Assembly: GCA_040403315.1 (NCBI GenBank)
Contig: JBBAKX010000003.1
Coordinates: forward strand, 29,627 to 93,626
Reading direction: 5' to 3'
Length of the DNA stretch: 64,000 nucleotides
Origin: Flavobacteriales bacterium
Lineage (GTDB): Bacteria > Bacteroidota > Bacteroidia > M30B66
Below the pieces are notes generated by a model. That model saw only the letters and a program-made list of their open reading frames with translations. It searched no databases and was not told the DNA's origin. Numbering within the stretch: position 1 is the first letter of the stretch; each line of letters starts with the position of its first letter. Of the stretch, positions 22,482 to 45,997 are shown piece after piece. The translations under genes were made by a program, and so were the position numbers.

Positions 22482-22511
22482 AAAATGGAAGCAATAAAAA
22501 CTGCTTTCATT
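22482..22511. terminator. Candidate bidirectional hairpin between the convergent GT4-fusion and glgB genes
   Basis: AAATGGAAGCA-ATAAAAAC-TGCTTTCATTT. One mismatch in a 10-11 bp stem. U-rich on both sides. Confidence 0.4.
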
Positions 22512-24606
22512 TTGAATTATTTGCTTTTTTATCTGTTGTTTTCGTAGTTATTGATTTCAAGTTTTGTTTCAGAGGTTTCAAAACAATAACACTTAATGGA
22601 GGCAAATTTAAAGACACTGAATACTCACGGTTATTTCTAGCAATATTAGTAGCAGAATATTTGCGTATTTCGGAGTAATTGCTACCATTATATTTGGTAT
22701 CGTCGCTATTGAATATTACATCATAATCTCCACTTTTAGGCATCCCCATTCGGTAATTTTCATGTGGAACTGGAGTTAAATTCGCAACCACAACAACAAA
22801 ATCATTTTGATCTTCTGCTTTACGTAAATAAGATATAACACAATTTTTATAATCGCTTAGGTCTATCCATTCAAAACCTTTTGCATTAAAATCTAACTCA
22901 TACAAAGCCTTTTCTTTTTTGTACAATGCGTTTAATGATTTTATCAATTCTTGAATTCCTTTGTGCGGTGCGAATTCGAGCAAATGCCAATCTACCGAAC
23001 TTTTATAATTCCATTCACCATATTGCCCAATTTCCGAGCCCATAAATAATAATTTTGTTCCTGGATGTGTAAACATGCAGCTGTATAATGCACGTAAATT
23101 CGAAAATCGATGCCATTCATCACCCGGCATTCTTTGCAGCAAAGAGCCTTTCCCATGAACCACTTCGTCATGAGAAAGTGGCAACATGAAATTTTCATTA
23201 AATGCATAATACAATGAAAAGGTAATGTCGTTTTGATGGTGTTCGCGATAAATTGGATCAGTTCCAAAATACCGCAATGTATCATGCATCCAGCCCATCA
23301 TCCATTTCATTCCAAATCCGAGTCCGCCTAAATATACCGGACGAGAAACCATTGGCCACGAAGTTGATTCTTCTGCAATCATTTGGATTTCAGGAAAATG
23401 AGTATACATTGTTTCGTTTAATTCTTTCATAAACGAAATCGCCTCCAAATTCTCATTTCCACCGTGAATATTGGGCTCCCATTCTCCTTCTTTTCTTGAA
23501 TAATCCAAATAAAGCATCGATGCCACAGCGTCAACTCGAAGCCCATCAACATGGTAATATTCTGCCCAAAACATTGCAGAACTTATTAAAAATGCACGAA
23601 CTTCATGTCTACCGTAATTGAAAATTAACGACTTCCAATCAGGGTGGTAACCTTTCCGCGGATCTTCATGCTCATATAATCTAGTCCCGTCGAAATTCGC
23701 CAACGCAAATGTATCTTCTGGGAAATGTGAAGGCACCCAATCCATTATTACTCCAATTTCATTTTCATGAAAAATGTCAATCAAATACATCAGATCTTGC
23801 GGACTTCCGAATCTAGATGTAGGCGCGAAATAACCCGTAGTTTGATAGCCCCATGATCCTGAATAAGGATGTTCGGTAAGTGGCATAAATTCCACATGCG
23901 TGAAACCCATTTCTTTAATGTACGGAACCAATTCTTCTGCCATTTCGCGGTAACTGATGTAGGCATCTTCTGCATCTCCCGATTTTTTCCAAGAACCTGC
24001 ATGCAATTCGTAAACCGACCACGGTTGTTGCAAAGTGCCTCGTTTTTTTCGCGATGACCAACGATTGGCGTTCCAGGTATAATTCAAGTCCCAAACTATT
24101 GAAGCGCGCTTTGGCGGCAATTCGCTGAAAAATGCAAATGGGTCGAATTTTTCTAAAATGTAACCCGTTTGCGCGTTCCTAATCATGTATTTGTAAAGAC
24201 TTCCATGTGCAACGCCTGCAACAAAAGTTTCCCAAATCCCTGATCCATCTAACCTCGGTTGTAATTTGCCTTGTTCTGGATTCCAGCCATTAAAATCGCC
24301 GATTACGCTAACTGCCGCTCCATTCGGCGCCCAAACAGCAAAATAAGTTCCCTGAATTCCATTGTTTTCGCAAAGATGTGAACCTAATTTTTCATACAAT
24401 TTAAAATGCTTCCCTTGTTTGAATAAATAAATATCCATGTCAGAAAACAAACTGAAATGCGATTTAACACTGTTTAAATCAATATTATTTCCCTCCGGGG
24501 AAGGGGCCGATTCGATTGTTCTAGCCTTAGGTTTTAAAGCCTTTTTTTCGATTGGATCGGCTTCTTTTTTTGCCTTAGTTTTCTTGGATATTTTTTTTTC
24601 AATCAT
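22507..24606 (-). CDS. glgB: 1,4-alpha-glucan branching enzyme GlgB (GH13_9), with Lys-rich N-terminal extension
   Basis: GTYFAVWAPNGAAVSVIGDFNGWN (CBM48 region). GH13 catalytic regions GLRVDAVASMLY, EESTSWP, HDEVVHGK. About 50-aa N-terminal tail KKISKKTKAKKEADPIEKKALKPKAR. Confidence 0.9.
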   Translation of the reverse strand: MIEKKISKKTKAKKEADPIEKKALKPKARTIESAPSPEGNNIDLNSVKSHFSLFSDMDIYLFKQGKHFKLYEKLGSHLCENNGIQGTYFAVWAPNGAAVSVIGDFNGWNPEQGKLQPRLDGSGIWETFVAGVAHGSLYKYMIRNAQTGYILEKFDPFAFFSELPPKRASIVWDLNYTWNANRWSSRKKRGTLQQPWSVYELHAGSWKKSGDAEDAYISYREMAEELVPYIKEMGFTHVEFMPLTEHPYSGSWGYQTTGYFAPTSRFGSPQDLMYLIDIFHENEIGVIMDWVPSHFPEDTFALANFDGTRLYEHEDPRKGYHPDWKSLIFNYGRHEVRAFLISSAMFWAEYYHVDGLRVDAVASMLYLDYSRKEGEWEPNIHGGNENLEAISFMKELNETMYTHFPEIQMIAEESTSWPMVSRPVYLGGLGFGMKWMMGWMHDTLRYFGTDPIYREHHQNDITFSLYYAFNENFMLPLSHDEVVHGKGSLLQRMPGDEWHRFSNLRALYSCMFTHPGTKLLFMGSEIGQYGEWNYKSSVDWHLLEFAPHKGIQELIKSLNALYKKEKALYELDFNAKGFEWIDLSDYKNCVISYLRKAEDQNDFVVVVANLTPVPHENYRMGMPKSGDYDVIFNSDDTKYNGSNYSEIRKYSATNIARNNREYSVSLNLPPLSVIVLKPLKQNLKSITTKTTDKKANNSK

Positions 24607-24626
24607 AAGTTTAATGTTTACTGTAA

Positions 24627-26276
24627 TCAGGCATCCAAATAATGGCGTACAAATTTAACAAGACTTTGCAATGGAATTACTGTCCATTCTGGACGATTGT
24701 TTATTTCATACCCTAATTCATAAATTGCCTTTTTGAAAGAATACACCTGTAAAAGTGCATTGATTTTATCTTCATCTGGTAAAATATTACTTCCTGATGT
24801 TGTTTTGATGTATTCGCCTAGATAATAGCGACTTACATAATGATACCAGACATCAACTACCGCCATAAGTTTGTCTGTTAAATGCGGTTTATCAGCAAAT
24901 TCAGTAAATATTACAGAGTAAGCTGCATATCGAAATGATCTCATCATTCCAGCAACATCTTTTAGTGGTGGATATTTTAATCTCCTTTCATGGTGAGGCT
25001 TGTCGGGTTCTCCTTCAAAATCCAAAATAAAAAAATCATCCCCACTCATCAACACTTGTCCTAAATGATAATCACCGTGAATTCGGATTCTTTCTCCTTT
25101 CATTTCTCGCTGAAGCACCAAGTTAAAGAACCTTTTTACACGCTCTTTTCCTTTGATCATTTCTACAGCATCTTCACGCAGTTTTCCACTTATCCTTTCC
25201 AAATTGGCTTCGAGCATTCCAAATCTAGAATCAACAAGGTATTCGATGTCTTTTAGTAATTTATTTTGAAATGCTTCATCAATAGGTTCAGGATCAAAAT
25301 CAGAATGTCCTTGAGATTGGCTAAGTGCAAGATGCATTTCTGCAGTTCTTTTCCCCAAAAGGGATGCTTTTTTAAATACCGATTCACCCATCAACATTCT
25401 TAATTCTGAAGGTGTCTGTTCAAGGCCCAGCGACAGAGTATGAGGTTTAATTGGCAAAGGTTTTAAGTGGTAATCAATCTGAATTGCTCTTTCCAGAAAG
25501 TGCTTCACTTCTTGAGTGAAATATTTCCATGCATCACCATTATTCACAACCAATTCCTGTAACATCATTACTAACATTGGCCCCTTTTCAGGATGAATCA
25601 CCGAAATACTTCCAGCCAATTTTGGCAATTGATGAAAAGTGTTTTGTGCAGTCAACCGACTCACCATTTCATAGTCTGGATTGGTCATATATTCCACTTT
25701 TCTGAAAAGTTTCAGGAAGTACTTGTTGCCATAAATTATTGCCGAATTACTTTGGTCTGAATTTAAAACGGATGAAACTCCGAAATCTCCTGCTGAATCT
25801 TTTAATGATAGACCTTTATCTGCCGAAAGTGTGTAATGTTCACCTTTAATTTCGGTCGATTTTGATATCAAATTGGGCAATGTATTTCGAAAATCTTCGT
25901 CATATATAGCGTCAATAATATAGCCTGAATTAACTGAATTTTCAAGCCTACATAAAATGGAAATCGACGGCGAATGAAGTTGGTTTTCATTTACAAATGC
26001 CAGTGGGAGTGTGTAAATTTCTGTTGGCCCATCTGGATATCTTACTTTTAAAAGTAGGAAATGCACAAAATTCTTACCTGTTTGTACAGGAATATTTTGG
26101 TAAATTTTAATGGCACTGATCATCCTCGCCTTCCCTCCAAACCACCTGCATTTTCTGAGGTATGATGGTAGTAGCTGATTTTCTATTTGATGCACGTAAC
26201 GATCGTTCTGAAATAAATCATTCCATTCGCAATTCAATGTAGGTTGAATGGTGTCTTTAATCCTTGTATCCAGCAT
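24627..26276 (-). CDS. mak: Maltokinase (Mak/Pep2-like aminoglycoside-phosphotransferase-fold kinase) with N-terminal cap domain
   Basis: APH-type kinase motifs: IHGDYHLGQVL (HGD catalytic loop) and ILDFEGEP (DFG-like). Sits between glgE and glgB as in the GlgE pathway. I chose the ATG at 26274-26276 (MLDTRIK) as start. The ORF-track start 26327 would overlap the glgE 3-prime end by 40 nt. Confidence 0.6.
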   Translation of the reverse strand: MLDTRIKDTIQPTLNCEWNDLFQNDRYVHQIENQLLPSYLRKCRWFGGKARMISAIKIYQNIPVQTGKNFVHFLLLKVRYPDGPTEIYTLPLAFVNENQLHSPSISILCRLENSVNSGYIIDAIYDEDFRNTLPNLISKSTEIKGEHYTLSADKGLSLKDSAGDFGVSSVLNSDQSNSAIIYGNKYFLKLFRKVEYMTNPDYEMVSRLTAQNTFHQLPKLAGSISVIHPEKGPMLVMMLQELVVNNGDAWKYFTQEVKHFLERAIQIDYHLKPLPIKPHTLSLGLEQTPSELRMLMGESVFKKASLLGKRTAEMHLALSQSQGHSDFDPEPIDEAFQNKLLKDIEYLVDSRFGMLEANLERISGKLREDAVEMIKGKERVKRFFNLVLQREMKGERIRIHGDYHLGQVLMSGDDFFILDFEGEPDKPHHERRLKYPPLKDVAGMMRSFRYAAYSVIFTEFADKPHLTDKLMAVVDVWYHYVSRYYLGEYIKTTSGSNILPDEDKINALLQVYSFKKAIYELGYEINNRPEWTVIPLQSLVKFVRHYLDA

Positions 26277-26287
26277 AATTATTCGGA

Positions 26288-28246
26288 TTAAGAGATTGTG
26301 TTGATAGTTAATTTGAAAATGTGACAAGGCACCAGATCCGGTAAAAGTTCAACATAATTCCATTGTTTATTCCAATAATAATTAGAATTGTCCATCAAGT
26401 CTGTTAAATCTATCATTTCACCTTCAATTACTTGCATTTCTTTTAGTGGAAGTTTTACCCATCCACTTTGTTTGTTTGTCGGATCCATATTTATAATCAC
26501 TAGTATTTTGTTGCTCCCATCATCAGTCGACTTATAGAACGCCAATAACATGTCATTATCGGTTTCACAGAACTGAATGTTGAATGTACTGTGAAATGCC
26601 GAATTGTGATTACGTATAGAATTTATTTTTCCTATTAAATTGTGAATTGGAGATTCTAATCGCCAATCCCAATGGCGGACTTCATATTTTTCCGAATTGA
26701 AATATTCTTCCTTGCCTGCAACTGGTTCATTTACACAGTATTCATGAACAGGGCCGTACATACCATAATTGGATGATAGTGTAGCTGCCAAAACATACCG
26801 CATAGCCGCATGATTGGAGCTTGTGTTTTGCAAATATTCTGGCAGAATGTCGGGGGTATTTGGCCAAAAATTCGCTCTGAAATACTCCCGAAGTTCAGTT
26901 TGTGTTAATTGATTTAGATATTCTATTAATTCAGATTTGTCTTTTCGCCATGTAAAGTAGCTATATGATTGATGAAAACCAATTTTTGCCAATCGAGCCA
27001 TGATTTTTGGACGCGTAAAGGCTTCACTAAGAAACAAAACATCCGGATGATCGCGTCGCATTTCTGCCATAATCCATTCCCAAAAAACAAATGGTTTGGT
27101 ATGGGGATTATCAACTCTAAATATTCGAATTCCCTTTTCAATCCAAAATTTAATTACATATTTGAGCGCATTCCAAAGATTTTCCCAATCGTCGGTTTCA
27201 AAATGAATCGGTAAAACATCTTGGTATTTTTTCGGAGGATTTTCTGCGTATTGCACCGTCCCATCTGGCCGCCATTTAAACCATGATGGATGTTCTTTCA
27301 CCCATGGATGATCTGGTGAACATTGGTATGCCAAATCCATTGCAATTTCCACATTCAACGACTGAGCATGAATTATCAGGTTCTTAAATTCTTCTAAAGT
27401 GCCTAATGTGGGATTAATTGCAGTATGTCCACCTTCTGAAGCACCTATTGCCCATGGAGAGCCAGGTTCTCCCGGAAGTGCTGTAGTAGAATTGTTTTTG
27501 CCTTTTCGGTGCGAAACACCTATTGGATGAACAGGCGGAAAATAAACAGTATCAAAACCCAATTGAGCCAATCGAGAAATTATTGGCAAACAGTCGTTGA
27601 AGGTTCCCGGTCGATTTGTATCTGGCGAGGATGACCTAGGAAAAAATTCATACCAAGAACTAAATGAGGCTTTTAAACGATCTACTTGTACTGGATATGA
27701 TGCTGAACTACTAGCAAATTGCTTTAAAGGAAAATTTTCTATGACTTTATGCATCCTTTCGCTAGCTGCTGCCTCAACAGCTACCGCGTAATTGCCTGAT
27801 TCTAGCTTTGAAAGCAAATCCATAATCGCCTCCTTTTCCGCTCTTTTATTCGCTGCAGCTATTTCTTTTAAGAGTTCAGCACCAATGCGCAAGTCTAATG
27901 TAAGTTCATCTCCTGCTGCTAATTTCTTTTGAAAGCCTTTATACCAAGTCATCGCATGGTCGACCCATGCTATTACTGCATATTCGTAAGGAACTGTTTC
28001 TTCCACCCGAAATTCACCTTTCCAAATATCATTTTCAGTAATAAGAATTTGATTTTCAGACCACTTCTTGGTTCCCAGTTTTCTGTAAATCAATCTTGCT
28101 GAAATTATGTCATGCCCATCAGCAATTAGGTCTGCAGTAACGCATATAACCTCTCCAACTATCCTTTTAATTGGAAATTTCCCGCCTTCTACCTGTGGTG
28201 AAATATTTTCAATGACTACTCTCGCGCGTGCTTCGTATTTTTTCAT
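26288..28246 (-). CDS. glgE: Alpha-1,4-glucan:maltose-1-phosphate maltosyltransferase GlgE (GH13_3)
   Basis: N-terminus RARVVIENISPQVEGGKFPIKRIVGEVICVTADLIADGHD matches the GlgE domain-N signature (V.IE.VSP.VD.G.FP.KRVVGE...DGHD). GH13 catalytic core FRVDNPHTKP. Adjacent to mak and glgB. Confidence 0.85.
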   Translation of the reverse strand: MKKYEARARVVIENISPQVEGGKFPIKRIVGEVICVTADLIADGHDIISARLIYRKLGTKKWSENQILITENDIWKGEFRVEETVPYEYAVIAWVDHAMTWYKGFQKKLAAGDELTLDLRIGAELLKEIAAANKRAEKEAIMDLLSKLESGNYAVAVEAAASERMHKVIENFPLKQFASSSASYPVQVDRLKASFSSWYEFFPRSSSPDTNRPGTFNDCLPIISRLAQLGFDTVYFPPVHPIGVSHRKGKNNSTTALPGEPGSPWAIGASEGGHTAINPTLGTLEEFKNLIIHAQSLNVEIAMDLAYQCSPDHPWVKEHPSWFKWRPDGTVQYAENPPKKYQDVLPIHFETDDWENLWNALKYVIKFWIEKGIRIFRVDNPHTKPFVFWEWIMAEMRRDHPDVLFLSEAFTRPKIMARLAKIGFHQSYSYFTWRKDKSELIEYLNQLTQTELREYFRANFWPNTPDILPEYLQNTSSNHAAMRYVLAATLSSNYGMYGPVHEYCVNEPVAGKEEYFNSEKYEVRHWDWRLESPIHNLIGKINSIRNHNSAFHSTFNIQFCETDNDMLLAFYKSTDDGSNKILVIINMDPTNKQSGWVKLPLKEMQVIEGEMIDLTDLMDNSNYYWNKQWNYVELLPDLVPCHIFKLTINTIS

Positions 28247-28400: not shown

Positions 28401-30308
28401 TTGGATTTGTTACATTTGCAAAATATGCGCTTCGAGAAATCCAGTATGCCAGTTTCGGTGCTATTTTTAATAGATCTTGGTATTTGCTTTATTTCGGTTT
28501 TAATATCCTATCTGCTCAGGTTTAATTTCAATATTCCTGCTGAGGAATTTAATTCTTTGTTCTGGGTAATTCCATCATTGCTTGCTATAAGAACTATCGC
28601 AAATCTGATATTTCAAACACACCGTGGAATTATTCGGCTAACCAATACTTCCGATGTGCAGAGGGTTTTTCTTTCTGTAGCATGTGGATCTATTTTTATA
28701 ATGCTTTTTAACCCAATACTTTTTGGGATTGTAGGAACTTATTTAATTCCCTATTCAATCACAGTTATTGAGGGTGTTTTTACCATTTTCTTAATGGTTA
28801 CAATGCGAATTGGTGTGAAAGTCCTGCTTATTGAATGGTTTAGCACTGGAAAGGAAAAAAATAAAGTGGTAATTGTAGGTTCTGGAGATACTGGCCTAAC
28901 GGCTAAACGTGCGATTGAACGTGATGCAGGAGCGAAATATGTTGTTGTTGCATTTATTGATGATGAGCCCGGACGAAGAGGAAAGAAAGTGCAAGGTGTT
29001 CATGTGAAGCAGCAAACGGAACTTTTCGAGATGATTAATGATCAGGAGATTCAATTGGTTATCCTAGCTCGAACTGAAATTGAAGCTGATCAAAAACAAA
29101 ATATTATTGATGCGTGTTTAATCAACAACATCAAGGTGTTTTCGGTTCCACCAGTAAGTTCTTGGATCAATGGAGAACTTAGCTTCAAGCAAATCAAGAA
29201 AGTCAATGTTAAGGATTTGCTCGAACGCTCTATAATCGATATCCACACCGAAAATATTCGTAAAGAGTTACAAGGTAAATGCGTACTTGTTACTGGCGCT
29301 GCAGGTTCAATTGGTTCTGAAATGGTAAAGCAAATTCTACCTTTCAAACCTTTAAAATTGATTTTGCTCGATCAAGCTGAAAGTCCGCTGTATGAACTTG
29401 AACGTGAGCTGCAAGATGAACTGAACTATTCAGGATTTGAAATAGTTGTGGGTGATATTCGAAATGAAGCCCGAATGCGCAATGTTTTTCAGCATTTCCA
29501 GCCCGAATATGTATTTCACGCTGCTGCATACAAACATGTTCCGTTGATGGAAAACAATCCATCAGAAGCTTTGCTCACAAATGTAAAAGGCACCCGTGTA
29601 TTGGCCGATTTGGCTTCAGAATTCGGAGCCAAAAAATTTGTTATGGTTTCCACCGATAAAGCCGTTCGTCCTACCAATGTGATGGGAGCCTCCAAACGTG
29701 TTGCTGAAATCTATGTTCAAAGCTTAGGGCAAGTGAGTCAAACAAAATTCATCACTACACGATTTGGGAATGTTCTAGGCAGCAATGGATCGGTGATTCC
29801 GATTTTTGCTCGTCAGATCGAACGCGGAGGACCAGTTACAGTAACACATCCCGATGTTACGCGTTTTTTCATGACGATTCCTGAGGCCTGTTTGTTGGTG
29901 CTCGAAGCAGGAACTTATGGTCAAGGAGGCGAGATTTTCTTATTTGATATGGGAAAATCTGTAAAAATCAAAGACCTAGTTGAGAAGATGATAAAATTGT
30001 CTGGGCTCACGCTCAACAAGGACATTACCATAAAATACACAGGTTTGCGCCCAGGCGAGAAGCTTTACGAAGAACTGCTCAACGACAAAGAAAATACCGT
30101 AGAAACACACCACAAACGAATCATGAAAGCGCTTGTTCAGGAATTCGATTTTAAAATAGTCGAACAAGCAATCAATGAAATGATTCCATTCTTCGAAACA
30201 CAAAATAATGAAGAAATTGTAAAGCGAATGAAACTTTTGGTTCCTGAATACAAGTCCAAAAACAGCATTTTTGAACAACTCGATCAGGAGGAAACCAATA
30301 CTAATTAA
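28401..30308 (+). CDS. Membrane-anchored NDP-sugar 4,6-dehydratase/epimerase (CapD/PglF/WbpM family)
   Basis: N-terminal TM segments, then a Rossmann fold VLVTGAAGSIGSEMVKQIL. Extended SDR active site (STDKAV...YKHV). Family-typical about 630 aa length. Confidence 0.85.
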   Translation: MDLLHLQNMRFEKSSMPVSVLFLIDLGICFISVLISYLLRFNFNIPAEEFNSLFWVIPSLLAIRTIANLIFQTHRGIIRLTNTSDVQRVFLSVACGSIFIMLFNPILFGIVGTYLIPYSITVIEGVFTIFLMVTMRIGVKVLLIEWFSTGKEKNKVVIVGSGDTGLTAKRAIERDAGAKYVVVAFIDDEPGRRGKKVQGVHVKQQTELFEMINDQEIQLVILARTEIEADQKQNIIDACLINNIKVFSVPPVSSWINGELSFKQIKKVNVKDLLERSIIDIHTENIRKELQGKCVLVTGAAGSIGSEMVKQILPFKPLKLILLDQAESPLYELERELQDELNYSGFEIVVGDIRNEARMRNVFQHFQPEYVFHAAAYKHVPLMENNPSEALLTNVKGTRVLADLASEFGAKKFVMVSTDKAVRPTNVMGASKRVAEIYVQSLGQVSQTKFITTRFGNVLGSNGSVIPIFARQIERGGPVTVTHPDVTRFFMTIPEACLLVLEAGTYGQGGEIFLFDMGKSVKIKDLVEKMIKLSGLTLNKDITIKYTGLRPGEKLYEELLNDKENTVETHHKRIMKALVQEFDFKIVEQAINEMIPFFETQNNEEIVKRMKLLVPEYKSKNSIFEQLDQEETNTN

Positions 30309-30746: not shown

Positions 30747-30989
30747 TTTAACGCTCCATTGCGCTTCAAACAGATTGAGAATACTAGGTTTTAGTTAAAT
30801 TGAATTGTTAATGATTTCTTAGGCAATTCGATAAATCATTTTAATTTTAGTTGTCGATTAAATCGGTTAACTTTTACGGTTTTCAAATTCTATCATGGAT
30901 TTAATCATGATCAGTTCGATTTAGTAGCTTTTTGAAACGAGAAAATTTCGACGCAACTTCACATTGTCTTCACTTTCATTTAATGTATA

Positions 30990-31397
30990 TTGCGAAATAA
31001 TTTAGGGAAAATGATAGTTCGAGTTGTTCTGAATTTGTTTATTGTTGTTTGTTTGGCTTCCTGTGCTAAAGATGCAGGAGAAGGCGGAACATCCTCTATA
31101 CAAGGAAAGATTTTTGGGTATGATATAAATGCAGCTGGAGTCGTAACCGATAGCGCATACGTTCAGGATGCTCGCGTTTACATCAGCTATGGAGACGGTA
31201 CAACAGTCGATAATGATGTTAGAACATCCTACACTGGAGATTACATTTTCCGTGGCCTAAGAAAGGGCATTTATACAATTTTCGTTTATTCGCAATGTAA
31301 TGATTGCCCATTCAATCAAGAGGTTGTGAAGCAAACTTTTGAAATTACTGAAAACAAACAGGAAGTTATTGTTCCTGATTTAAAGATTTTCGATTAA
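30990..31397 (+). CDS. Lipoprotein with carboxypeptidase-regulatory-like (transthyretin-like) beta-sandwich domain
   Basis: Lipobox LASC after a hydrophobic stretch. The internal ATG at 31011 (MIVRVV) is the likelier start. GKIFGYD...ARVYISYGDGTTVDNDVRTSYTGDYIFRGLRKGIYTIFVY matches CarbopepD_reg-like repeats. Confidence 0.4.
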   Translation: MRNNLGKMIVRVVLNLFIVVCLASCAKDAGEGGTSSIQGKIFGYDINAAGVVTDSAYVQDARVYISYGDGTTVDNDVRTSYTGDYIFRGLRKGIYTIFVYSQCNDCPFNQEVVKQTFEITENKQEVIVPDLKIFD

Positions 31398-32179
31398 TGA
31401 CAGAAGATCAGAATTCATTTTCTGCCCTTCATGATTTTGAAGCAGTAAGCCTACAGCAACTCGATGGTGTAAAGCTTATGAATCGAGTAGATCAAAAGTT
31501 TATTCTGCATCAGAGAGAGCTTAATTCTTTATTATTGGAAATTCAAGCATATTACAATGTTTTAGAAATAAAAAACAAAAGGATTTTCCGCTACAGCAGT
31601 TTATATTACGATACAGATGAGCAAAATTTTTATTCTGATCACCACAACGGGAAACCCAATCGAATTAAAATTCGAAGTCGTGAATACTTAGACACAGGAA
31701 CTGCATTCTTCGAAATAAAGAAAAAAATTAAAGGATTTCGTACAGAAAAATATCGTGTTGAAAAATCAGGTGATAAATTGAATGATCAACTTTCAGAACG
31801 AGAATTACTAAAAACTCATCGTCTAGATCATATTTCTCTAGTGCCTTCAATTATTGTTGAATATTCGAGAATTTCAATCATCGCAAAAGATTTTTCTGAG
31901 CGAGTAACAATCGACACAGATCTCTCTTTTAAAAAGGAAAGTGGAGAAGAGTCAATGAGAGGTCTCGTTATCATTGAGGTGAAGCAAGATCAAGTAAAAC
32001 GTGAAAGCCCAATCGTTGAAGCACTTCGGAAACGAAGAAACAGACCTTTTGGAATTTCTAAATACGCTATGGGCATGGTGCTCATGAATGCAGCAATAAA
32101 AACGAATGCTTTTAGACATAAAGTATCCAAAATCAAACAACTGATTTCAAGAAATGGAGCCAATAGACGCAGTGAATGA
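31397..32179 (+). CDS. VTC-domain protein (CYTH-like triphosphate tunnel; polyphosphate-polymerase-like domain)
   Basis: 260 aa, cytoplasmic. NRVDQKFIL...YYDTDEQNFYSDHHNGKPNRIKIRSREYLDTGTAFFEIKKK...EKYRV resembles bacterial VTC-domain proteins. Start overlaps the upstream stop (TAATGA). Confidence 0.55.
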   Translation: MTEDQNSFSALHDFEAVSLQQLDGVKLMNRVDQKFILHQRELNSLLLEIQAYYNVLEIKNKRIFRYSSLYYDTDEQNFYSDHHNGKPNRIKIRSREYLDTGTAFFEIKKKIKGFRTEKYRVEKSGDKLNDQLSERELLKTHRLDHISLVPSIIVEYSRISIIAKDFSERVTIDTDLSFKKESGEESMRGLVIIEVKQDQVKRESPIVEALRKRRNRPFGISKYAMGMVLMNAAIKTNAFRHKVSKIKQLISRNGANRRSE

Positions 32180-32816
32180 AAGCCTTAGCGCATCTGGTGC
32201 GCATAGCTTAACCGATTTTGCTATTCGATTCGGTATTAACTTATTTGTGATTTTTGTACTGGTTAGGTTATTGTACTATCCTCTGCGAAAAAATCGTGAT
32301 TTTCTTTTCACGTTTTTCCTCTTTAATATCATCAATTTCCTCATCTGCTTTTTACTGAGCAGCGCTAAATTAAAAATGGGATTTGCCTTCGGGCTCTTCG
32401 CTATTTTCTCGATTCTTCGCTATAGAACAGTAACAGTGCCTGTTAGAGAAATGGGCTATTTTTTTATCTCTGTTACCCTTGGTATCATAAATGCCTTAAC
32501 TACCAACGAACAAGGAATGGTTATGTTGGTGATTGCAAATTTGGTGATCCTCAGTGTAGCTTGGATTATTGATCATAAAGTAAAGGTAACTCACGAAAAT
32601 TTTAAGGAGGTAATTTACGATCGAATTGATTTAATTTCTCCTGATAAACGAGAGGAAATGATAAATGATCTGCGACAAAGAACTGGATTAAACATTCACA
32701 GAGTGGAGTTTTCAAGAATCGATTTTTTTAAAGACACAGCTCGGATTTTCGTTTTTTACAACGATTATAGAAATGATGCCGAAGTTGCTGTTAGTGAAGG
32801 CGGAGATGATGATTAA
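32154..32816 (+). CDS. DUF4956-like polytopic membrane protein (usual partner of bacterial VTC-domain proteins)
   Basis: 220 aa with 4-5 TM helices followed by a soluble C-terminal domain. Overlaps the VTC gene by 26 nt. Known co-occurrence pattern. Confidence 0.5.
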   Translation: MEPIDAVNESLSASGAHSLTDFAIRFGINLFVIFVLVRLLYYPLRKNRDFLFTFFLFNIINFLICFLLSSAKLKMGFAFGLFAIFSILRYRTVTVPVREMGYFFISVTLGIINALTTNEQGMVMLVIANLVILSVAWIIDHKVKVTHENFKEVIYDRIDLISPDKREEMINDLRQRTGLNIHRVEFSRIDFFKDTARIFVFYNDYRNDAEVAVSEGGDDD

Positions 32817-33519
32817 TAAAATAATAGTTTTAGCTTTTCTTATTGCTTCAACAACCGTTGTTTCTGCTCAGGCTGATCTACGTGATCTTCATCTATGGAC
32901 AGCCATAGAAATCAACCACAAACTCAACAAAAAGATTGAACTCTCCGTGCAGTTTCAATCTCGTTTCGACCGTGAGGTAAATCGCCTTCGCGGCAATTAT
33001 TTTAGCATTGATGCATCTCGAAAACTTGGAAATGGATTCAGACTTTTGTTAGATGCACGATTTGCAACTTCCAGCAGATGGGATAAGTGCCGCTTCGGGA
33101 TTGGCTTGCAGAAAAATATCAAGTTCGATGAAAAAGGAAACTCTGAATTAAAATTAAGAGCCCTTTATCAATACCAGTTTTTCCCAACAGCTGATGTTCA
33201 ATATAGCATCGATATTCCACAACAGAACTACCGATTTAGGGCTTCATTCACCACGAAAATCATCAAAAAAACTTACTTAACCATCCAATCTGAACCCATG
33301 TGGAGAGCAGAAGCAGGCAGCTTTTTCTTCCGCAGAGTGCGTTCAACAGTTAGTGTGAAAAGATCTTTGCCCGGACCATGGGCAATTCAAGTTGGTTATA
33401 CACGCCAATTAAACTTTAACAACCCAGTCGATATCCAAATTATTTCGACAACGTTATCATACGACTGGAAGCGAAAAGCGAAAGCTGAAAAAAGAACTAT
33501 CACCACTCCTGCCTTCTAG
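32806..33519 (+). CDS. Secreted beta-rich protein (DUF2490-like, putative outer-membrane beta-barrel)
   Basis: Signal peptide MMINKIIVLAFLIASTTVVSAQA. Alternating hydrophobic beta-strand pattern. Start ATGATGATT overlaps the upstream TAA stop. Family assignment is from memory and tentative. Confidence 0.4.
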   Translation: MMINKIIVLAFLIASTTVVSAQADLRDLHLWTAIEINHKLNKKIELSVQFQSRFDREVNRLRGNYFSIDASRKLGNGFRLLLDARFATSSRWDKCRFGIGLQKNIKFDEKGNSELKLRALYQYQFFPTADVQYSIDIPQQNYRFRASFTTKIIKKTYLTIQSEPMWRAEAGSFFFRRVRSTVSVKRSLPGPWAIQVGYTRQLNFNNPVDIQIISTTLSYDWKRKAKAEKRTITTPAF

Positions 33520-33646: not shown

Positions 33647-34207
33647 ATGAAAAAACTATTCATCCTTCTGCTTTCCGCTACAATTTTTACTTCCTGCGTG
33701 AATGTGGTATCTAGCCCGAATAATATGCCAACTCCTTCTACTTCCATCTACGATTTCAAACTTAAGTCTATCGACGGCAAAACAATTGATTTTTCCTCTT
33801 TCAAAGGGAAGAAACTTTTAATTGTAAATACAGCATCCGAATGTGGCTACACTCCTCAATATGAAGGTTTGCAAGAACTTCAATCCAAGTTTGGGGATAA
33901 AATTAATATCGTGGGTTTCCCATGTAACGATTTTGGAGGGCAAGAACCTGGTGCAAATTCTGAGATTCAGTCTTTCTGCTCAAAAAATTACGGAGTTACT
34001 TTTCAAATGATGGAAAAAGTATCTGTGAAAGGTGAAAGTACTGCTCCTCTTTATAAATGGCTAGCCGACCCAGCTTTAAACGGTTGGAACAGCGAAAAAC
34101 CCAATTGGAATTTTTGCAAGTATCTCATCAACGAAGAAGGGAAACTAACCAATTTCTTTAATTCTGCTGTTAAGCCAATGAGCGACGATATTGTTAATAA
34201 GCTCTAG
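33647..34207 (+). CDS. Glutathione peroxidase (Cys-type), lipoprotein-anchored
   Basis: NTASECGYTPQYEGLQELQ...FPCNDFGGQEPG...FLIN are the GPx signatures. Catalytic residue is Cys (TGT), not Sec. N-terminal signal with Cys. Confidence 0.85.
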   Translation: MKKLFILLLSATIFTSCVNVVSSPNNMPTPSTSIYDFKLKSIDGKTIDFSSFKGKKLLIVNTASECGYTPQYEGLQELQSKFGDKINIVGFPCNDFGGQEPGANSEIQSFCSKNYGVTFQMMEKVSVKGESTAPLYKWLADPALNGWNSEKPNWNFCKYLINEEGKLTNFFNSAVKPMSDDIVNKL

Positions 34208-34227
34208 CCAAACCCTATTTTATTTAT

Positions 34228-34260
34228 AGCCCGAATAGCATTCTCTATTCGGGCTTTTTC
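34228..34260 (+). terminator. Rho-independent terminator after the glutathione peroxidase gene
   Basis: AGCCCGAATAG-cattct-CTATTCGGGCT followed by TTTTC. Perfect 11-bp stem. Confidence 0.65.
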
Positions 34261-36707: not shown

Positions 36708-37760
36708 TTATTTTGCGCCTAATATCTCTAGGTACCTCAATAGAGCTTGGTTTTCCTGCTCCAAGATAAAGGCTACGAATTCTTGTTTTTGGTTTTCTGT
36801 TTGGGCCTGTTCTAATGCATGATAATATTTCTTTCTAGTGTTTAAGTCGCCTTTAATATTGGCAATTACGAAACCGTAGCGCAGTAATATTAGGTTCATG
36901 AGTAACCTTGAAGTGCGGCCGTTTCCATCAATAAAGGGGTGGATTGTAACCAAGCGCTGATGTGCCTCAGCCGCTAGGACCACTGGATGTAGTTGAGATT
37001 CTGACTTGCTAAGCCATGCAAAAAAATCTTCCATTTGTATAGGCACCAAATAGGGTGGAGGAGGCATGTGTTTACTTCCAGTTATCATTACTTGAACCTG
37101 CCTGTAACGACCTGCATTTTCTGGATCGATTCCACGAAGGATTAAATTGTGCAATGCAAGCACATCCCTTTCACGAATGGGCGTGTTTTTCGAAGCCAAA
37201 TCTTTCATGTAAACGATTGCTTCTTGGTGATTTATTGCTTCCAGATGCTCGCGCATACTTTTTCCAGAAATAGTAAGCCCTTCATTAACAACTAAGTCTG
37301 TTTCTTGAAGTGTAAGTGTATTTCCTTCAATCCGATTGCTTTCGAAGGTGTATTCTAGTTCAAGGGCTTGTGTAATTCTGTAACTATCGAATTTCCTAAA
37401 TTCTTGAAGTTTACTTCTGTGATCTTCAAGTGCACTTAGTATGTCATCAAATGCTCTGTAAGGTGCAATTGGCTCGCGAAGTGCCGAAACTGTTTCTTCA
37501 GAAAACAAGGCAAGCACATCGGGTAGTAGTTGAATATCAGAGCCCAATTCACGGTTGATTTTTTCTTTCAACCAATGGGTGATTAGTTGCTTCGTAGGAA
37601 TCTCGAGCAAGTTCGCTAAATCTAAGATTTGGTTCCTGGTTGGAAGCCTGCTGCCGGTTTCAAATTTACTAACCAATGCTTGGTCAATACCCAATTGCTG
37701 TGCTACTTCGCGAACGAGCAGCCTTTTCTTTTCTCTAGCGTTTTTTAGGATTGTTTGCAT
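36708..37760 (-). CDS. HTH(XRE)-Fic domain protein (AMPylation / adenylyltransferase family)
   Basis: N-terminal HTH LVREVAQQLGIDQALVSKFETG. Canonical Fic motif HPFIDGNGRTSRLLMN. Confidence 0.8.
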   Translation of the reverse strand: MQTILKNAREKKRLLVREVAQQLGIDQALVSKFETGSRLPTRNQILDLANLLEIPTKQLITHWLKEKINRELGSDIQLLPDVLALFSEETVSALREPIAPYRAFDDILSALEDHRSKLQEFRKFDSYRITQALELEYTFESNRIEGNTLTLQETDLVVNEGLTISGKSMREHLEAINHQEAIVYMKDLASKNTPIRERDVLALHNLILRGIDPENAGRYRQVQVMITGSKHMPPPPYLVPIQMEDFFAWLSKSESQLHPVVLAAEAHQRLVTIHPFIDGNGRTSRLLMNLILLRYGFVIANIKGDLNTRKKYYHALEQAQTENQKQEFVAFILEQENQALLRYLEILGAK

Positions 37761-39399: not shown

Positions 39400-40215
39400 A
39401 TGATTAGCAAACTTTTCGCCCCAGTTTTAGGCCTTATTCTAATGGCAGGGCAACTTTCGGCAGCAGAAAGCATCGTTCGGGTATCTCAATCATTGTCTCA
39501 ACAAAAGGCTTATGCAGGTGGTACATTTTTGGTGAAAATTCGCATCGAACGACGAAATCTCGACAGTTACTTCCAGATTCAACAAGATCTTCCTAAAGGA
39601 ATGGAAGCAACAGGCGTAGAAAGTCAAGGTGCTACTTTCACCTTTAAGGATGGAAAAGTAAAATATACTTGGCTTCGTTTGCCAGCAACTGAAGAAGTTC
39701 AGGTAATGTACAAGGTAACTGTACCTTTCGAAATGCGCGGTGCACAAGCCATTAAAGGCAACTACTACTACATTCGTGAGGAAGAAAAGGAATCATATCC
39801 TCTTCCAGTTAACAATATTGAAGTTATCGAGAATGCGGCACCTTCTGATTCTTTGGCAGAAAAAACTTTGCTCGGCATTATTAATAATGACGCAAATAAG
39901 CCTTCCTACACTTCAGAAGAAAAGCCAGATTTGTTATTCAAAGTGCAAATCTTGAGTTCTACACGTAAACTCAATCGTGATTCGCTGAGCAAAGAATACA
40001 ATGTAAAAGATGTTGTGGATGAAGAGAATTTTAACGGTTTGTTCAAATACACTGTTGGGAACTTCAAGACCTACGAATCAGCGCGAGATTTCAAAAATCG
40101 ACTCGATTTCCAAAAATATATTCCATTCGTAATTGCATACAACCGTGGTGCACGAATTACTGTTGGAGAAGCGATGCAACTGGCATCTAAACGTAAAACA
40201 GTAGCGAAAAACTAA
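39400..40215 (+). CDS. Secreted SPOR-domain (septal peptidoglycan-binding) protein, paralog A
   Basis: Signal peptide. N-terminal beta-sandwich-like domain (QQDLPKGMEATGVES...KYTWLRLP). C-terminal SPOR domain FKVQILSSTRKLNRDSL...NGLFKYTVGNFKTYESARDFKNRL...VIAYNRGARI. Confidence 0.6.
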   Translation: MISKLFAPVLGLILMAGQLSAAESIVRVSQSLSQQKAYAGGTFLVKIRIERRNLDSYFQIQQDLPKGMEATGVESQGATFTFKDGKVKYTWLRLPATEEVQVMYKVTVPFEMRGAQAIKGNYYYIREEEKESYPLPVNNIEVIENAAPSDSLAEKTLLGIINNDANKPSYTSEEKPDLLFKVQILSSTRKLNRDSLSKEYNVKDVVDEENFNGLFKYTVGNFKTYESARDFKNRLDFQKYIPFVIAYNRGARITVGEAMQLASKRKTVAKN

Positions 40216-42351: not shown

Positions 42352-42548
42352 TTAATTTAGTTTGTAATTTGAATTTCAGATAATTAAGGCCAATAAATAC
42401 TTTTTGTGTTTTATAATAACTGTCGTAGAATCAATAAATAGAGATGTAGAAAGTAACTATTGTCAATAGGGAATTTGCACTAATAATGGATGACAATATT
42501 TAGCTGATTCCTGTATTTTAACTTGTAATTTTTACGAACTTGCCTCCA

Positions 42549-42929: not shown

Positions 42930-42974
42930 TTTTGGCACTGTTTTTATCTCCCATTCATAAAAATCCCTTCTCAC

Positions 42975-43532: not shown

Positions 43533-43550
43533 CCTACAATTATCATTCAA

Positions 43551-43579
43551 GGCCGGAGTTTTTCCGGCCTTTATTTTTG
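43551..43579 (+). terminator. Rho-independent terminator after the yceI-like gene
   Basis: GGCCGGA-gttttt-TCCGGCC followed by TTTATTTTT. Confidence 0.65.
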
Positions 43580-43583
43580 CCCT

Positions 43584-45991: not shown

Positions 45992-45997
45992 CAGAAC

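What the first reader, a model, noticed from the sequence alone, without database searches (positions are those of the whole stretch)
30990..33519. VTC (CYTH-like) domain protein, DUF4956 membrane protein and DUF2490-like secreted beta-protein with overlapping reading frames, preceded by a small lipoprotein
Three consecutive genes overlap each other (26-nt and 11-nt overlaps), implying tight translational coupling. The first is a soluble VTC/CYTH-like triphosphate-tunnel domain, homologous to the catalytic domain of eukaryotic polyphosphate polymerase Vtc4. The second is a polytopic membrane protein of the DUF4956 type. The third is a secreted beta-rich protein. The bacterial VTC plus DUF4956 pairing is recurrent but functionally uncharacterised. 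Here it extends to an exported third component and an upstream CarbopepD_reg-like lipoprotein, suggesting an envelope-spanning module, for example polyphosphate or phospho-substrate synthesis coupled to export.
Basis: partly seen in the sequence, partly recalled or inferred. Interest (0 to 1): 0.55.

Follow-up and report, generated by a model that had tools for sequence, protein, structure and literature searches.

The report
Bacterial Vtc4-like polyphosphate polymerase operon
This is a tightly packed four-gene operon that pairs a bacterial look-alike of the yeast polyphosphate-making enzyme Vtc4 with a highly conserved inner-membrane protein, an outer-membrane barrel and a small lipoprotein; the gene set is widespread in Bacteroidota, nobody has studied it, and it may make polyphosphate and pass it out of the cell.

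Summary
Four same-strand genes sit at 31011-33519: a lipoprotein, a VTC protein, a DUF4956 protein and a DUF2490 protein. They overlap by 1, 26 and 8-11 nt.

Pfam confirms VTC (95 bits), DUF4956 (171 bits) and DUF2490 (35.8 bits, just above cut-off). The CarboxypepD_reg call for the lipoprotein is below cut-off.

The VTC protein models confidently (pLDDT 90.8), and its best structural match is the yeast Vtc4 catalytic domain. It has an equivalent for every Vtc4 catalytic residue, including the lysine (K458) that separates active Vtc4 from inactive Vtc2/3.

In 80 distant genomes VTC is followed by DUF4956 in 77, DUF2490 follows in 48, and the lipoprotein precedes in 21. A syntenic relative carries that gene exactly where this window has a 226-nt gap.

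Best reading (confidence 0.42): a VTC-like polyphosphate polymerase docked on a DUF4956 inner-membrane conduit, with DUF2490 as the outer-membrane exit. No biochemistry exists for any part.

The window's copy is an ordinary, CotH-less member of a large uncharacterised family.

The parts
30747..31010 (+). AT-rich intergenic region upstream of the operon. It is the presumed promoter region and also the site where a syntenic relative carries a 2.6-kb CotH kinase gene.
   Evidence: blastn of the window against L081: window 30749-30974 replaces L081 2955-5579, which encodes an 800-aa CotH+LTD+Por_Secre_tail protein. No CotH remnant remains. There are only near-matches to the Bacteroidota TAnnTTTG motif, and the sigma-70-like hits are not above the shuffle level.
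31011..31397 (+). Small lipoprotein of 128 aa (the ORF is open from TTG 30990). It has a signal peptide with lipobox LASC and a beta-rich body that weakly resembles CarboxypepD_reg.
   Evidence: Sequence MIVRVVLNLFIVVCLASC. Pfam PF13620 scores 21.9 bits, below the cut-off of 32.3. A homologue lies upstream of VTC in 21 of 80 loci. It is called as 128 aa in the same genome and in relatives.
31397..32179 (+). Stand-alone cytoplasmic VTC-domain protein (260 aa). It is a triphosphate-tunnel fold closest to the Vtc4 polyphosphate polymerase catalytic domain.
   Evidence: PF09359 95 bits. AF2 pLDDT 90.8. The best Foldseek hits are Vtc4 entries 3g3r/8i6v/5iig, E 2e-12. hhalign to Vtc4 gives E 1.5e-5. 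Catalytic equivalents K34, R93, R95, K108, R158, E194, S221 and K222 are invariant in 40 homologues; Y156 is Y or F.
32154..32816 (+). DUF4956 inner-membrane protein (220 aa). It has about five TM helices with many invariant polar or charged residues, a cytoplasmic beta-alpha-beta-beta (ACT-like) domain and an acidic C-terminal tail.
32806..33519 (+). DUF2490 predicted outer-membrane beta-barrel (237 aa from ATG 32806). It has signal peptide MMINKIIVLAFLIASTTVVSAQA and near-invariant arginines that appear to face the barrel lumen.
   Evidence: PF10677 35.8 bits (cut-off 29.8) and a weak YaiO barrel hit. The family is listed as putative porin TC 1.B.81 (PMC4827864). Conserved R53, R85, R96, R118, R143, R179 and E163 are flanked by hydrophobic columns. 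It follows DUF4956 in 48 of 80 loci.
33647..34255 (+). Glutathione peroxidase with a lipoprotein-type signal, followed by the first strong terminator-like hairpin. It may be co-transcribed with the operon and is conserved only in close relatives.
   Evidence: PF00255 131.7 bits. N-terminus MKKLFILLLSATIFTSC. Terminator-like site at 34228-34255, with none predicted on the + strand between 33519 and 33647. The same neighbour is present in L081-L086.

Best explanation
The four genes form one operon that encodes a bacterial counterpart of the eukaryotic VTC machine.

Proposed mechanism:
- The 260-aa cytoplasmic tunnel enzyme takes the gamma-phosphate of ATP (Mn2+/Mg2+-dependent) and extends an inorganic polyphosphate chain, as Vtc4 does.
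- It works docked on an oligomer of the DUF4956 inner-membrane protein. That protein's invariant cytoplasmic Arg-rich loop and polar TM core receive the nascent chain and pass it to the periplasm.
- The DUF2490 barrel, lined with conserved arginines, lets the chain cross the outer membrane.
- The small lipoprotein is an envelope accessory.
- In many relatives the product is presumably used or modified outside the cell together with a T9SS-secreted CotH kinase and calcium- or carbohydrate-binding secreted proteins. This window's lineage lacks the adjacent CotH gene.

Shown here: the gene order and its conservation, the family assignments, the Vtc4-like fold and the full catalytic residue set. 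Inferred: polymerase activity, physical docking, translocation, the direction of transport, and the role of DUF2490.
For: Enzyme:
- PF09359 at 95 bits.
- A confident model whose 13 best PDB matches are all Vtc4/Vtc3/Vtc2 tunnel domains, ahead of TTM hydrolases.
- Alignment to Vtc4, whose sequence was verified against 3g3q, gives K34=K200, R93=R264, R95=R266, K108=K281, Y156=Y359, R158=R361, R169=R373, E194=E426, S221=S457 and K222=K458.
- All of these are invariant in 40 homologues of 37-92% identity, except Y/F at position 156.
- These are exactly the residues whose mutation lowers polyP in yeast, and K458 is the one residue lost in the inactive Vtc2/Vtc3 (bioRxiv 10.1101/2023.01.27.525886; PMC9911596).

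Membrane partner:
- VTC is followed by DUF4956 on the same strand in 77 of 80 loci from several phyla, and the other three loci are cut short or ambiguous.
- DUF4956 is at least as conserved as the enzyme, with many invariant polar or charged residues inside and between TM helices. That is not expected of a mere anchor.

Envelope reach:
- DUF2490 has a signal peptide, belongs to a putative porin family, has six near-invariant arginines in a lumen-facing register, and immediately follows DUF4956 in 48 of 80 diderm loci.
- Neither description of the Gram-positive Pel-associated gene sets lists a DUF2490 gene (bioRxiv 10.1101/768473; 10.1101/2024.04.20.589940).
- Recurrent operon partners are secreted: CotH with a T9SS tail (about 29 loci), other T9SS-tailed proteins (11), YHYH+EF-hand (5 loci) and Cthe_2159 (3).

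Operon: overlaps of 1, 26 and 8-11 nt leave no room for internal promoters and are kept in relatives at 81-92% identity.
Against: - No member of the bacterial VTC, DUF4956 or DUF2490 families has any biochemical or genetic characterisation in the searched literature.
- The protein lacks the SPX sensor and the fused three-helix TM domain of Vtc4.
- DUF4956 shows no detectable similarity to Vtc1-type TM domains.
- The first strand reads R-V-D-Q-K with an invariant Asp, where Vtc4 has Thr, so the chemistry could differ.
- The Y359 equivalent is Phe in 23 of 40 homologues, although Y359F lowers polyP in yeast.
- The DUF4956 model is only moderate (pLDDT 69) and shows no obvious pore.
- About 40% of diderm loci have no DUF2490 next to the pair, so an outer-membrane exit is not obligatory.
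- A 2026 preprint reads conserved charged residues in some DUF2490 models as a buried network, not an open pore (10.64898/2026.07.29.741452).
- The S. intermedius authors suggested that the polyP stays cytoplasmic.
Confidence: 0.42

Rival explanations
1. The enzyme is a polyphosphate polymerase, but the product stays in the cytoplasm. DUF4956 only tethers and regulates the enzyme through its ACT-like domain, which would sense a small ligand such as phosphate or an amino acid. DUF2490 and the lipoprotein serve another purpose, for example anion or phosphate uptake to feed synthesis.
For: The catalytic residue set is the same as in the best explanation. The C-terminal domain of DUF4956 weakly resembles ACT/NikR-type ligand-binding domains. 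The S. intermedius preprint proposes cytoplasmic polyP. About 40% of loci lack DUF2490.
Against: The extreme conservation of polar residues in the TM core of DUF4956 is hard to explain for a tether. The recurrent partners are secreted or outer-membrane proteins, not cytoplasmic ones. From general knowledge, bacteria commonly make cytoplasmic polyP with PPK1/PPK2; this genome was not checked for those genes.
Confidence: 0.2
2. The system runs inwards. DUF2490 admits environmental polyphosphate or pyrophosphate, DUF4956 carries it across the inner membrane, and the tunnel enzyme threads and cleaves it (or runs the Vtc4 reaction backwards to make ATP). It would then be a phosphorus-scavenging system.
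For: The arginine-rich barrel is compatible with anion uptake. Other tunnel enzymes such as YgiF and archaeal TTMs, also matched by the model, are tri- or polyphosphatases. An invariant Asp in the first strand is closer to the acidic motif of the hydrolases.
Against: The best structural matches and the K458 equivalent point to the polymerase branch. No Pho-type transporter or phosphatase genes are linked to the module. The link with secreted CotH kinases is not explained by uptake.
Confidence: 0.12
3. The tunnel enzyme does not handle free polyphosphate. Instead it supplies or transfers phosphate or pyrophosphate groups to an envelope polymer (exopolysaccharide, LPS or a surface protein) that is being exported, working with CotH-type kinases as a surface-modification module.
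For: In Gram-positive bacteria cotH, VTC and DUF4956 genes are contiguous with Pel exopolysaccharide operons. In this window the operon lies in a region rich in polysaccharide-biosynthesis genes: CapD-like at 28401-30308, and glycosyltransferases, Wzy and DegT at 1-22 kb and 37.8-39 kb. Carbohydrate-binding Cthe_2159 and GH26 partners occur in relatives.
Against: The polysaccharide context is not general among the 80 loci. No glycosyl or lipid-carrier binding domain is present in the four proteins. The catalytic residues match those that hold a free triphosphate or polyP chain in Vtc4.
Confidence: 0.12
4. The four genes are only neighbours by chance or by local synteny and do not work together.
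For: Overlapping genes are common in this genome. The lipoprotein is present in only 21 of 80 loci and DUF2490 in 48 of 80.
Against: VTC is followed by DUF4956 in 77 of 80 loci across Bacteroidota orders and in Planctomycetota. DUF2490, when present, is always immediately downstream, and the flanks are otherwise unrelated between lineages.
Confidence: 0.03

Closest known systems
Eukaryotic VTC complex (yeast Vtc4/Vtc3/Vtc1), a polyphosphate polymerase coupled to a membrane channel
   Same: The catalytic domain is the same family (PF09359) and fold. All residues that hold the triphosphate and Mn2+ are conserved, including the Vtc4-specific K458. The enzyme is genetically tied to a small multi-helix membrane protein, so synthesis coupled to membrane transit is the natural analogy.
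   Different: There is no SPX sensor domain, no fused C-terminal three-helix TM domain, and no Vtc1-like subunit. The membrane partner is DUF4956, which shows no detectable similarity. The enzyme is a separate 260-aa polypeptide. The target compartment would be the periplasm or the exterior, not a vacuole, and an outer-membrane barrel is added. The first-strand motif is R-x-D-x-K, not R-x-T-x-K.
cotH / polyphosphate-polymerase-like / DUF4956 / DUF4832 accessory genes of Gram-positive Pel loci (Streptococcus, Clostridium, Bifidobacterium; bioRxiv 10.1101/768473, 10.1101/2024.04.20.589940) and C. perfringens NELoc-2 (PMC11677781)
   Same: The same VTC + DUF4956 pair occurs, with a secreted CotH-like kinase as a frequent third partner. 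The function is equally unknown.
   Different: Those are monoderm bacteria without DUF2490 or the lipoprotein, and their sets are tied to Pel operons. Here the set is diderm, has an outer-membrane barrel, and in this window has no CotH.
Bacteroides thetaiotaomicron BT3498-BT3499 (DUF4956 + DUF2490)
   Same: The same adjacent DUF4956 and DUF2490 genes are present in a cultivated, genetically tractable Bacteroidota species.
   Different: They are only listed in a transcriptome table (down 7.6-fold in low iron, p 0.175; PMC10434189). No functional study exists, and sequence relatedness to the window was not measured here.
CYTH / triphosphate tunnel metalloenzymes (E. coli YgiF, Sulfolobus TTM, plant TTM3, thiamine triphosphatase)
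   Same: They share the eight-stranded tunnel fold with inward-facing basic residues, and they are second-tier structural matches (E 1e-8 to 1e-4).
   Different: They carry the ExExK acidic motif and hydrolyse tri- or polyphosphates. The window protein has R-V-D-Q-K and matches Vtc4 better.
Phosphate- and pyrophosphate-selective porins OprP/OprO of Pseudomonas (own knowledge, not tested)
   Same: They are outer-membrane barrels whose lumen carries a ladder of arginines that selects phosphate anions. DUF2490 has six near-invariant arginines in a lumen-facing register.
   Different: No sequence or fold relationship was shown. DUF2490 is much smaller (about 215 mature residues). Its oligomeric state and conductance are unknown.
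PPK1 / PPK2 polyphosphate kinases
   Same: They would share the end product (polyP from a nucleoside triphosphate).
   Different: They have unrelated folds, are cytoplasmic or peripheral, and have no dedicated membrane or outer-membrane partners.

Membership tests
VTC domain / Vtc4-type polyphosphate polymerase | Match to Pfam PF09359 above the gathering score | tested here: met
   95 bits against a cut-off of 23, covering profile positions 1-234 of 235.
VTC domain / Vtc4-type polyphosphate polymerase | Triphosphate-tunnel beta-barrel fold closest to Vtc4 | tested here: met
   AF2 model pLDDT 90.8. Foldseek ranks 1-13 are all Vtc4/Vtc3/Vtc2 tunnel domains, best E 2.2e-12 with TM 0.62-0.65; the hydrolase TTMs come after.
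VTC domain / Vtc4-type polyphosphate polymerase | Triphosphate-binding residues K200, R264, R266, K281, R361, S457 and Y359, and the Mn2+ ligand E426 | tested here: met
   K34, R93, R95, K108, R158, S221, Y156 and E194 align by hhalign, HMM and pairwise alignment. All are invariant in 40 homologues except position 156, which is Y in 17 and F in 23. The alignment of the C-terminal third is weak (13 of 500 shuffles reach its score).
VTC domain / Vtc4-type polyphosphate polymerase | Lysine at the K458 position, which is Ile/Leu in the inactive paralogues Vtc2/Vtc3 | tested here: met
   K222 in the motif SKY aligns to SKF of Vtc4 and is invariant in 40 of 40 homologues. The criterion comes from bioRxiv 10.1101/2023.01.27.525886.
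VTC domain / Vtc4-type polyphosphate polymerase | N-terminal SPX domain and C-terminal three-helix membrane domain on the same chain, and assembly with Vtc1 | tested here: not met
   The protein is 260 aa with a single Pfam domain. The 150 best family representatives are all stand-alone proteins of 230-322 aa. No Vtc1-like gene lies in the operon.
VTC domain / Vtc4-type polyphosphate polymerase | Synthesis of polyphosphate from ATP | not testable with these tools
   This needs an enzyme assay. No published assay of any bacterial member was found.
CYTH / TTM hydrolases | ExExK motif on the first strand | tested here: not met
   The first strand reads R30-V-D32-Q-K34, with R, D and K invariant.
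DUF4956 (PF16316) | Pfam match above the gathering score, with a multi-helix membrane core plus a small C-terminal soluble domain | tested here: met
   171.5 bits against 30.6, full-length match. The model has five helices and a beta-alpha-beta-beta domain at residues 147-204.
DUF2490 (PF10677; putative porin family TC 1.B.81) | Pfam match above the gathering score | tested here: met
   35.8 bits against 29.8, a narrow margin. Precomputed hits in close relatives are 'weak' or absent, but an iterated profile recovers 48 homologues in the same operon position.
DUF2490 (PF10677; putative porin family TC 1.B.81) | Signal peptide and outer-membrane beta-barrel architecture | tested here: inconclusive
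   A signal peptide and Gln at +1 are seen in the window and in the 47 homologues. Nine segments show alternating hydrophobicity, and many homologues have a C-terminal aromatic residue. The barrel is asserted by PMC4827864 and 10.64898/2026.07.29.741452.
CarboxypepD_reg-like domain (PF13620) | Pfam match above the gathering score | tested here: not met
   21.9 bits against 32.3. In relatives the hit is 'weak' only. The lipobox is clear from the sequence.
CotH-associated VTC/DUF4956 module | A CotH kinase gene adjacent to the pair | tested here: not met
   Profiles built from 29 neighbouring CotH genes find nothing in the 64-kb window. A syntenic relative has CotH between the thioesterase and the lipoprotein.

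The most novel reading that the evidence does not exclude
The operon is a complete trans-envelope polyphosphate synthase-exporter. It would be a third, PPK-independent route to polyP in bacteria, built from a Vtc4-like polymerase, a new type of inner-membrane polyanion conduit (DUF4956) and an arginine-lined outer-membrane pore (DUF2490). Its extracellular polyP would serve as matrix material, as a calcium chelator, or as the phosphoryl donor for T9SS-secreted CotH kinases, which otherwise lack ATP outside the cell. The family could also represent the bacterial ancestor of the eukaryotic VTC polymerase.
Probability: 0.2. Interest if true: 0.85.

Novelty: new variant of a known kind. Interest (0 to 1): 0.55.

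Why it matters
Bacterial polyphosphate is currently attributed to PPK1 and PPK2, which are cytoplasmic enzymes. VTC-type synthesis coupled to membrane transit is regarded as a eukaryotic invention.

This family is large. A profile search finds about 9,300 clusters at 50% identity, 2,370 of them at E<=1e-30. Its members keep every catalytic residue of Vtc4 and are nearly always paired with one extremely conserved membrane protein.

If these proteins do make and export polyP, several things follow:
- It would add a new route for polyP into the periplasm, biofilm matrix or surrounding water. That bears on phosphorus cycling by aquatic Flavobacteriia and on gut Bacteroides.
- It would give a function to three domain-of-unknown-function families.
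- It would offer an explanation for secreted CotH kinases.
- It would inform the origin of the eukaryotic VTC complex.

The hypothesis is directly testable in cultivated relatives, for example the BT3498-99 region of B. thetaiotaomicron or Flavobacterium and Polaribacter strains. The window itself is an ordinary member, so the value lies in the family and not in this particular locus.

Tried and rejected
- Direct sequence search of the VTC protein against PDB found nothing relevant. A profile found only Vtc2, at E 8e-5. The link to Vtc4 needed profile-profile and structure comparison.
- hhalign of the C-terminal third alone was weak (E 0.074). A pairwise alignment with a shuffle control was added.
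- NCBIfam gave no hit for any of the four proteins except a sub-threshold YaiO barrel match.
- A search for fused VTC-DUF4956 proteins among the 150 best representatives found none.
- A CotH gene elsewhere in the window was searched for and not found. No CotH remnant is present in the 264-nt upstream spacer.
- Promoter and terminator scans were uninformative upstream: counts were at shuffle level and there is no exact TAnnTTTG.
- A general link to polysaccharide loci was considered and is not supported across the 80 loci.
- Literature searches for DUF4956, DUF2490, bacterial VTC, CotH+polyphosphate and the BT3497-99 locus tags found no functional work.
- The organism could not be named. The genome is in NCBI on a 371-kb contig without a name in the tools. 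The best species-representative genomes are only 48% identical.


Full report
**What is there**

I read the junctions directly from the DNA:
- The first gene ends TAA and shares one base with the ATG of the second (TAATG at 31397).
- The ATG of the third gene, at 32154, lies 26 nt upstream of the end of the second gene's TGA at 32177-32179.
- The fourth gene can start at ATG 32806 or 32809, which is 11 or 8 nt before the end of the third gene's TAA at 32814-32816.

The most likely start of the first gene is ATG 31011. This gives MIVRVVLNLFIVVCLASC, a signal peptide with a lipobox. Gene calls in the same genome and in relatives use this start (128 aa).

The start of the third gene at 32154 is supported by the conserved N-terminus M-E-P/T in homologues.

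For the fourth gene, the public call in this genome uses an upstream ATG (247 aa). The MMINK start gives a canonical signal peptide, and close relatives use the corresponding start.

Overlaps between same-strand genes are frequent in this window. They indicate compaction and not something improbable.

**Family assignments**

Pfam gives:
- VTC PF09359, 95 bits, for the 260-aa protein.
- DUF4956 PF16316, 171.5 bits, for the 220-aa protein.
- DUF2490 PF10677, 35.8 bits (cut-off 29.8), for the last protein, plus a sub-threshold YaiO barrel hit.
- CarboxypepD_reg, only 21.9 bits (cut-off 32.3), for the lipoprotein.

NCBIfam has no model for any of the four.

The flanking genes are:
- Upstream: a CapD/WbpM-like polysaccharide enzyme (28401-30308) and a 4HBT thioesterase.
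- Downstream: a lipoprotein-type glutathione peroxidase, an Lhr-type helicase, a Fic protein and a glycosyltransferase.

**The tunnel enzyme**

A 40-sequence alignment of homologues (37-92% identity) has 35 invariant columns. They are dominated by Arg, Lys, Glu and Asp in an alternating strand pattern.

AlphaFold2 gives a confident model (pLDDT 90.8). Its 13 best PDB matches are all tunnel domains of yeast Vtc4, Vtc3 and Vtc2 (best E 2.2e-12, TM 0.62-0.65). E. coli YgiF and other triphosphate tunnel hydrolases come next.

I recalled the Vtc4 sequence from memory and verified residues 189-480 as 100% identical to PDB chain 3g3q_A.

Profile-profile alignment (E 1.5e-5) and HMM alignment give these equivalences:
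- K34 = K200
- R93 = R264
- R95 = R266
- K108 = K281
- Y156 = Y359
- R158 = R361
- R169 = R373

For the C-terminal third, hhalign alone aligns SKY to SKF (E 0.074). A local pairwise alignment then lines up IIEVK with VLEVK and SKY with SKF at the same time. Its score is 30, and 13 of 500 shuffles reach it. This gives E194 = E426, S221 = S457 and K222 = K458.

According to the cryo-EM study of VTC (bioRxiv 10.1101/2023.01.27.525886), these are the residues that hold the triphosphate and Mn2+ and whose mutation lowers polyP. K458 is the only one replaced (by Ile or Leu) in the inactive Vtc2 and Vtc3. R264A/R266A/E426N is the standard catalytically impaired mutant (PMC9911596).

In the 40 bacterial homologues all these positions are invariant, except the Tyr, which is Y in 17 and F in 23.

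Three differences from Vtc4 remain:
- There is no SPX domain.
- There is no fused membrane domain.
- The first strand reads R-V-D-Q-K with an invariant Asp. That is neither the CYTH ExExK motif nor Vtc4's R-Q-T-T-K.

**The membrane protein**

DUF4956 has more than 3,500 detectable relatives and a strikingly invariant core, NRDFLFTFFLFNIINFLICFLLSSAKLKMGFAFGLFAIFSILRYRTVTVPVREMGYFF.

The model is moderate (pLDDT 68.9). It has five helices and a C-terminal beta-alpha-beta-beta domain at residues 147-204, and the sequence ends in an acidic tail, GGDDD.

By the positive-inside rule (my reading of the sequence):
- The N-terminus is outside.
- The Arg-rich loops PLRKNRD and RYRTVTVPVRE are cytoplasmic.
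- The C-terminal domain is cytoplasmic, which is where the VTC enzyme is.

Vtc3 has an acidic regulatory loop that contacts the basic exit of the Vtc4 tunnel. The conserved acidic tail of DUF4956 could do something similar, but that is speculation.

**The barrel**

DUF2490 is listed as a putative outer-membrane porin family of unknown function, TC 1.B.81 (PMC4827864). A 2026 preprint describes its predicted structures as outer-membrane beta-barrels with Sec signal peptides.

I aligned the window protein with 47 homologues taken from the same operon position. This shows:
- Every one has a signal peptide, with Gln as the first mature residue in 96%.
- R53, R85, R96, R118, R143 and R179 are near-invariant, as is E163.
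- Each of these arginines sits between hydrophobic columns. That is the register expected for side chains pointing into a barrel lumen.

This fits an anion-selective interior. However, the same preprint reports that in some members such residues form a buried charge network, so an open pore is not established.

**Neighbourhood survey**

A scan of one genome per species returned 589 relatives. I analysed the 80 best (35-48% identity). They are mostly from Bacteroidota orders, plus three Planctomycetota contigs. Iterated profiles gave these counts:

| Feature | Loci |
|---|---|
| DUF4956 immediately downstream of VTC, same strand | 77 of 80 (two of the other three reach a contig end; L041 places a DUF2490-like ORF directly after VTC) |
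| DUF2490 immediately after DUF4956 | 48 |
| Lipoprotein upstream of VTC | 21 |
| A 135-188-aa repeat protein between lipoprotein and VTC | 8 |

The commonest additional neighbour is a CotH kinase with a lamin-tail domain and a type IX secretion sorting domain. It occurs in 25 + 4 loci. Of those 29 loci, 25 also have DUF2490.

A Pfam census of 117 other same-strand, closely spaced neighbours found:
- T9SS-tailed proteins: 11
- EF-hand proteins fused to YHYH domains: 5-6
- Thioredoxin/peroxiredoxin-like proteins: 4
- Cthe_2159 carbohydrate-binding proteins: 3
- A LytTR two-component pair: 3

Using heuristic start sites, the gaps between genes are as follows:

| Junction | Overlapping | Overlapping or gap of 20 nt or less |
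|---|---|---|
| VTC / DUF4956 | 22 of 77 | 47 of 77 |
| DUF4956 / DUF2490 | 13 of 46 | 33 of 46 |

Close relatives (81-92% protein identity) keep overlaps of 1, 23-26 and 8 nt.

**The missing kinase**

A syntenic relative (GCA_947460255.1 and an ENA contig, about 79% nucleotide identity) has the order thioesterase, CotH (800 aa), lipoprotein, VTC, DUF4956, DUF2490, peroxidase, helicase.

In the window, and in a 92%-identical relative, 226 nt (30749-30974) stand where that genome has 2.6 kb. No remnant is left. No CotH is detectable anywhere in the 64 kb.

The window therefore carries the CotH-less form of a module whose fuller form includes a secreted kinase.

**Literature**

I found no functional study of bacterial VTC, DUF4956 or DUF2490 proteins. 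What exists is this:
- Gram-positive Pel operons carry cotH, a polyphosphate-polymerase-like gene, DUF4956 and DUF4832 (bioRxiv 10.1101/768473).
- A Streptococcus intermedius preprint describes the same trio. It models the DUF4956 protein as four TM segments plus an ACT domain and suggests that polyP may remain cytoplasmic.
- C. perfringens NELoc-2 has a CotH gene and VTC-domain genes.
- BT3498-99 of B. thetaiotaomicron appear in an iron-limitation table.

**Interpretation**

The best-supported model is a VTC-like polymerase working on a DUF4956 conduit, with DUF2490 as the outer-membrane passage (confidence 0.42). The rivals are:
- Cytoplasmic polyP with DUF4956 as regulator or anchor (0.20).
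- Inward transport and cleavage of environmental polyP (0.12).
- Phospho-modification of an exported polymer (0.12).
- Unrelated neighbours (0.03).

Established here: the operon, its conservation, the families, the fold and the catalytic residue set. Inferred: enzyme activity, docking, transport, direction of transport, and the roles of the barrel and the lipoprotein.

**Novelty and score**

The pairing is recurrent, and others have noticed parts of it, so the locus is not a discovery in itself. This copy is an ordinary, CotH-less member.

The family as a whole (about 9,300 clusters at 50% identity) remains uncharacterised. If the model holds, it would be a new bacterial variant of the VTC principle with unrelated membrane parts. 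I rate interest at 0.55.

Noticed in passing
window 30749-30974, against L081 2955-5579: There is a clean presence/absence polymorphism of an 800-aa T9SS-secreted CotH kinase gene between closely related genomes (about 79% nucleotide identity on both flanks). The window and a 92%-identical relative lack it, with no remnant.
   Followed up: yes
window 32154-32816 (C-terminus, residues 214-220): All 32 aligned DUF4956 proteins end in a short acidic tail (GGDDD, SDED, DDD). This recalls the acidic regulatory loop of Vtc3 that contacts the basic exit of the Vtc4 tunnel. It could be a tether or a pseudo-substrate.
   Followed up: partly
window 32806-33519 and the DUF2490 genes of 47 loci: The first mature residue after the signal peptide is Gln in 96% of DUF2490 homologues. 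Six arginines are near-invariant while overall identity is only about 23%.
   Followed up: partly
window 22507-28246 (- strand): Three adjacent genes match GlgB-like branching enzyme (CBM_48/alpha-amylase), maltokinase (Mak_N_cap) and GlgE maltosyltransferase. This is the maltose-1-phosphate route to alpha-glucan, which is best known from actinobacteria.
   Followed up: no
window 4404-9683 (- strand): A 1759-aa ORF with no Pfam match at E<=1e-5 sits inside a polysaccharide-biosynthesis region (GT4, Wzy_C, GT2, DegT and GT1 genes at 1-22 kb).
   Followed up: no
window 33647-34207: The glutathione peroxidase downstream has a lipoprotein-type signal (…IFTSC), so it is probably periplasmic. No terminator-like site separates it from the operon. 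Thioredoxin/peroxiredoxin-like genes also occur in operon-like position in 4 of the distant loci.
   Followed up: partly
window 36708-37760 (- strand): A Fic-domain protein with an N-terminal HTH domain lies between the Lhr-type helicase and a glycosyltransferase.
   Followed up: no
window 44489-47086 (- strand) and 47222-50485 (- strand): An AAA_5 ATPase is paired with a VWA-domain protein. Next to them is a 1087-aa S8 subtilase with PKD domains and a T9SS sorting tail, which shows that the organism uses type IX secretion.
   Followed up: no
window 42540-44483: A small cytochrome c-like protein, a YceI protein and a DUF5777 membrane beta-barrel (299 bits) lie in a row. Two upstream ORFs (39400-40215 and 40325-41344) have no Pfam match.
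   Followed up: no
L019, L024, L031, L036, L044, L045, L048 and L014, L023, L045, L051, L053, L056, L075: In several Flavobacteriales-type loci the VTC-DUF4956 pair sits directly beside a conserved 2,474-aa ORF (cluster c6, not Pfam-scanned; I read it as SprA-like) or beside a PorV gene (confirmed by Pfam). Both would be type IX secretion components. This may be lineage synteny or a functional link.
   Followed up: partly
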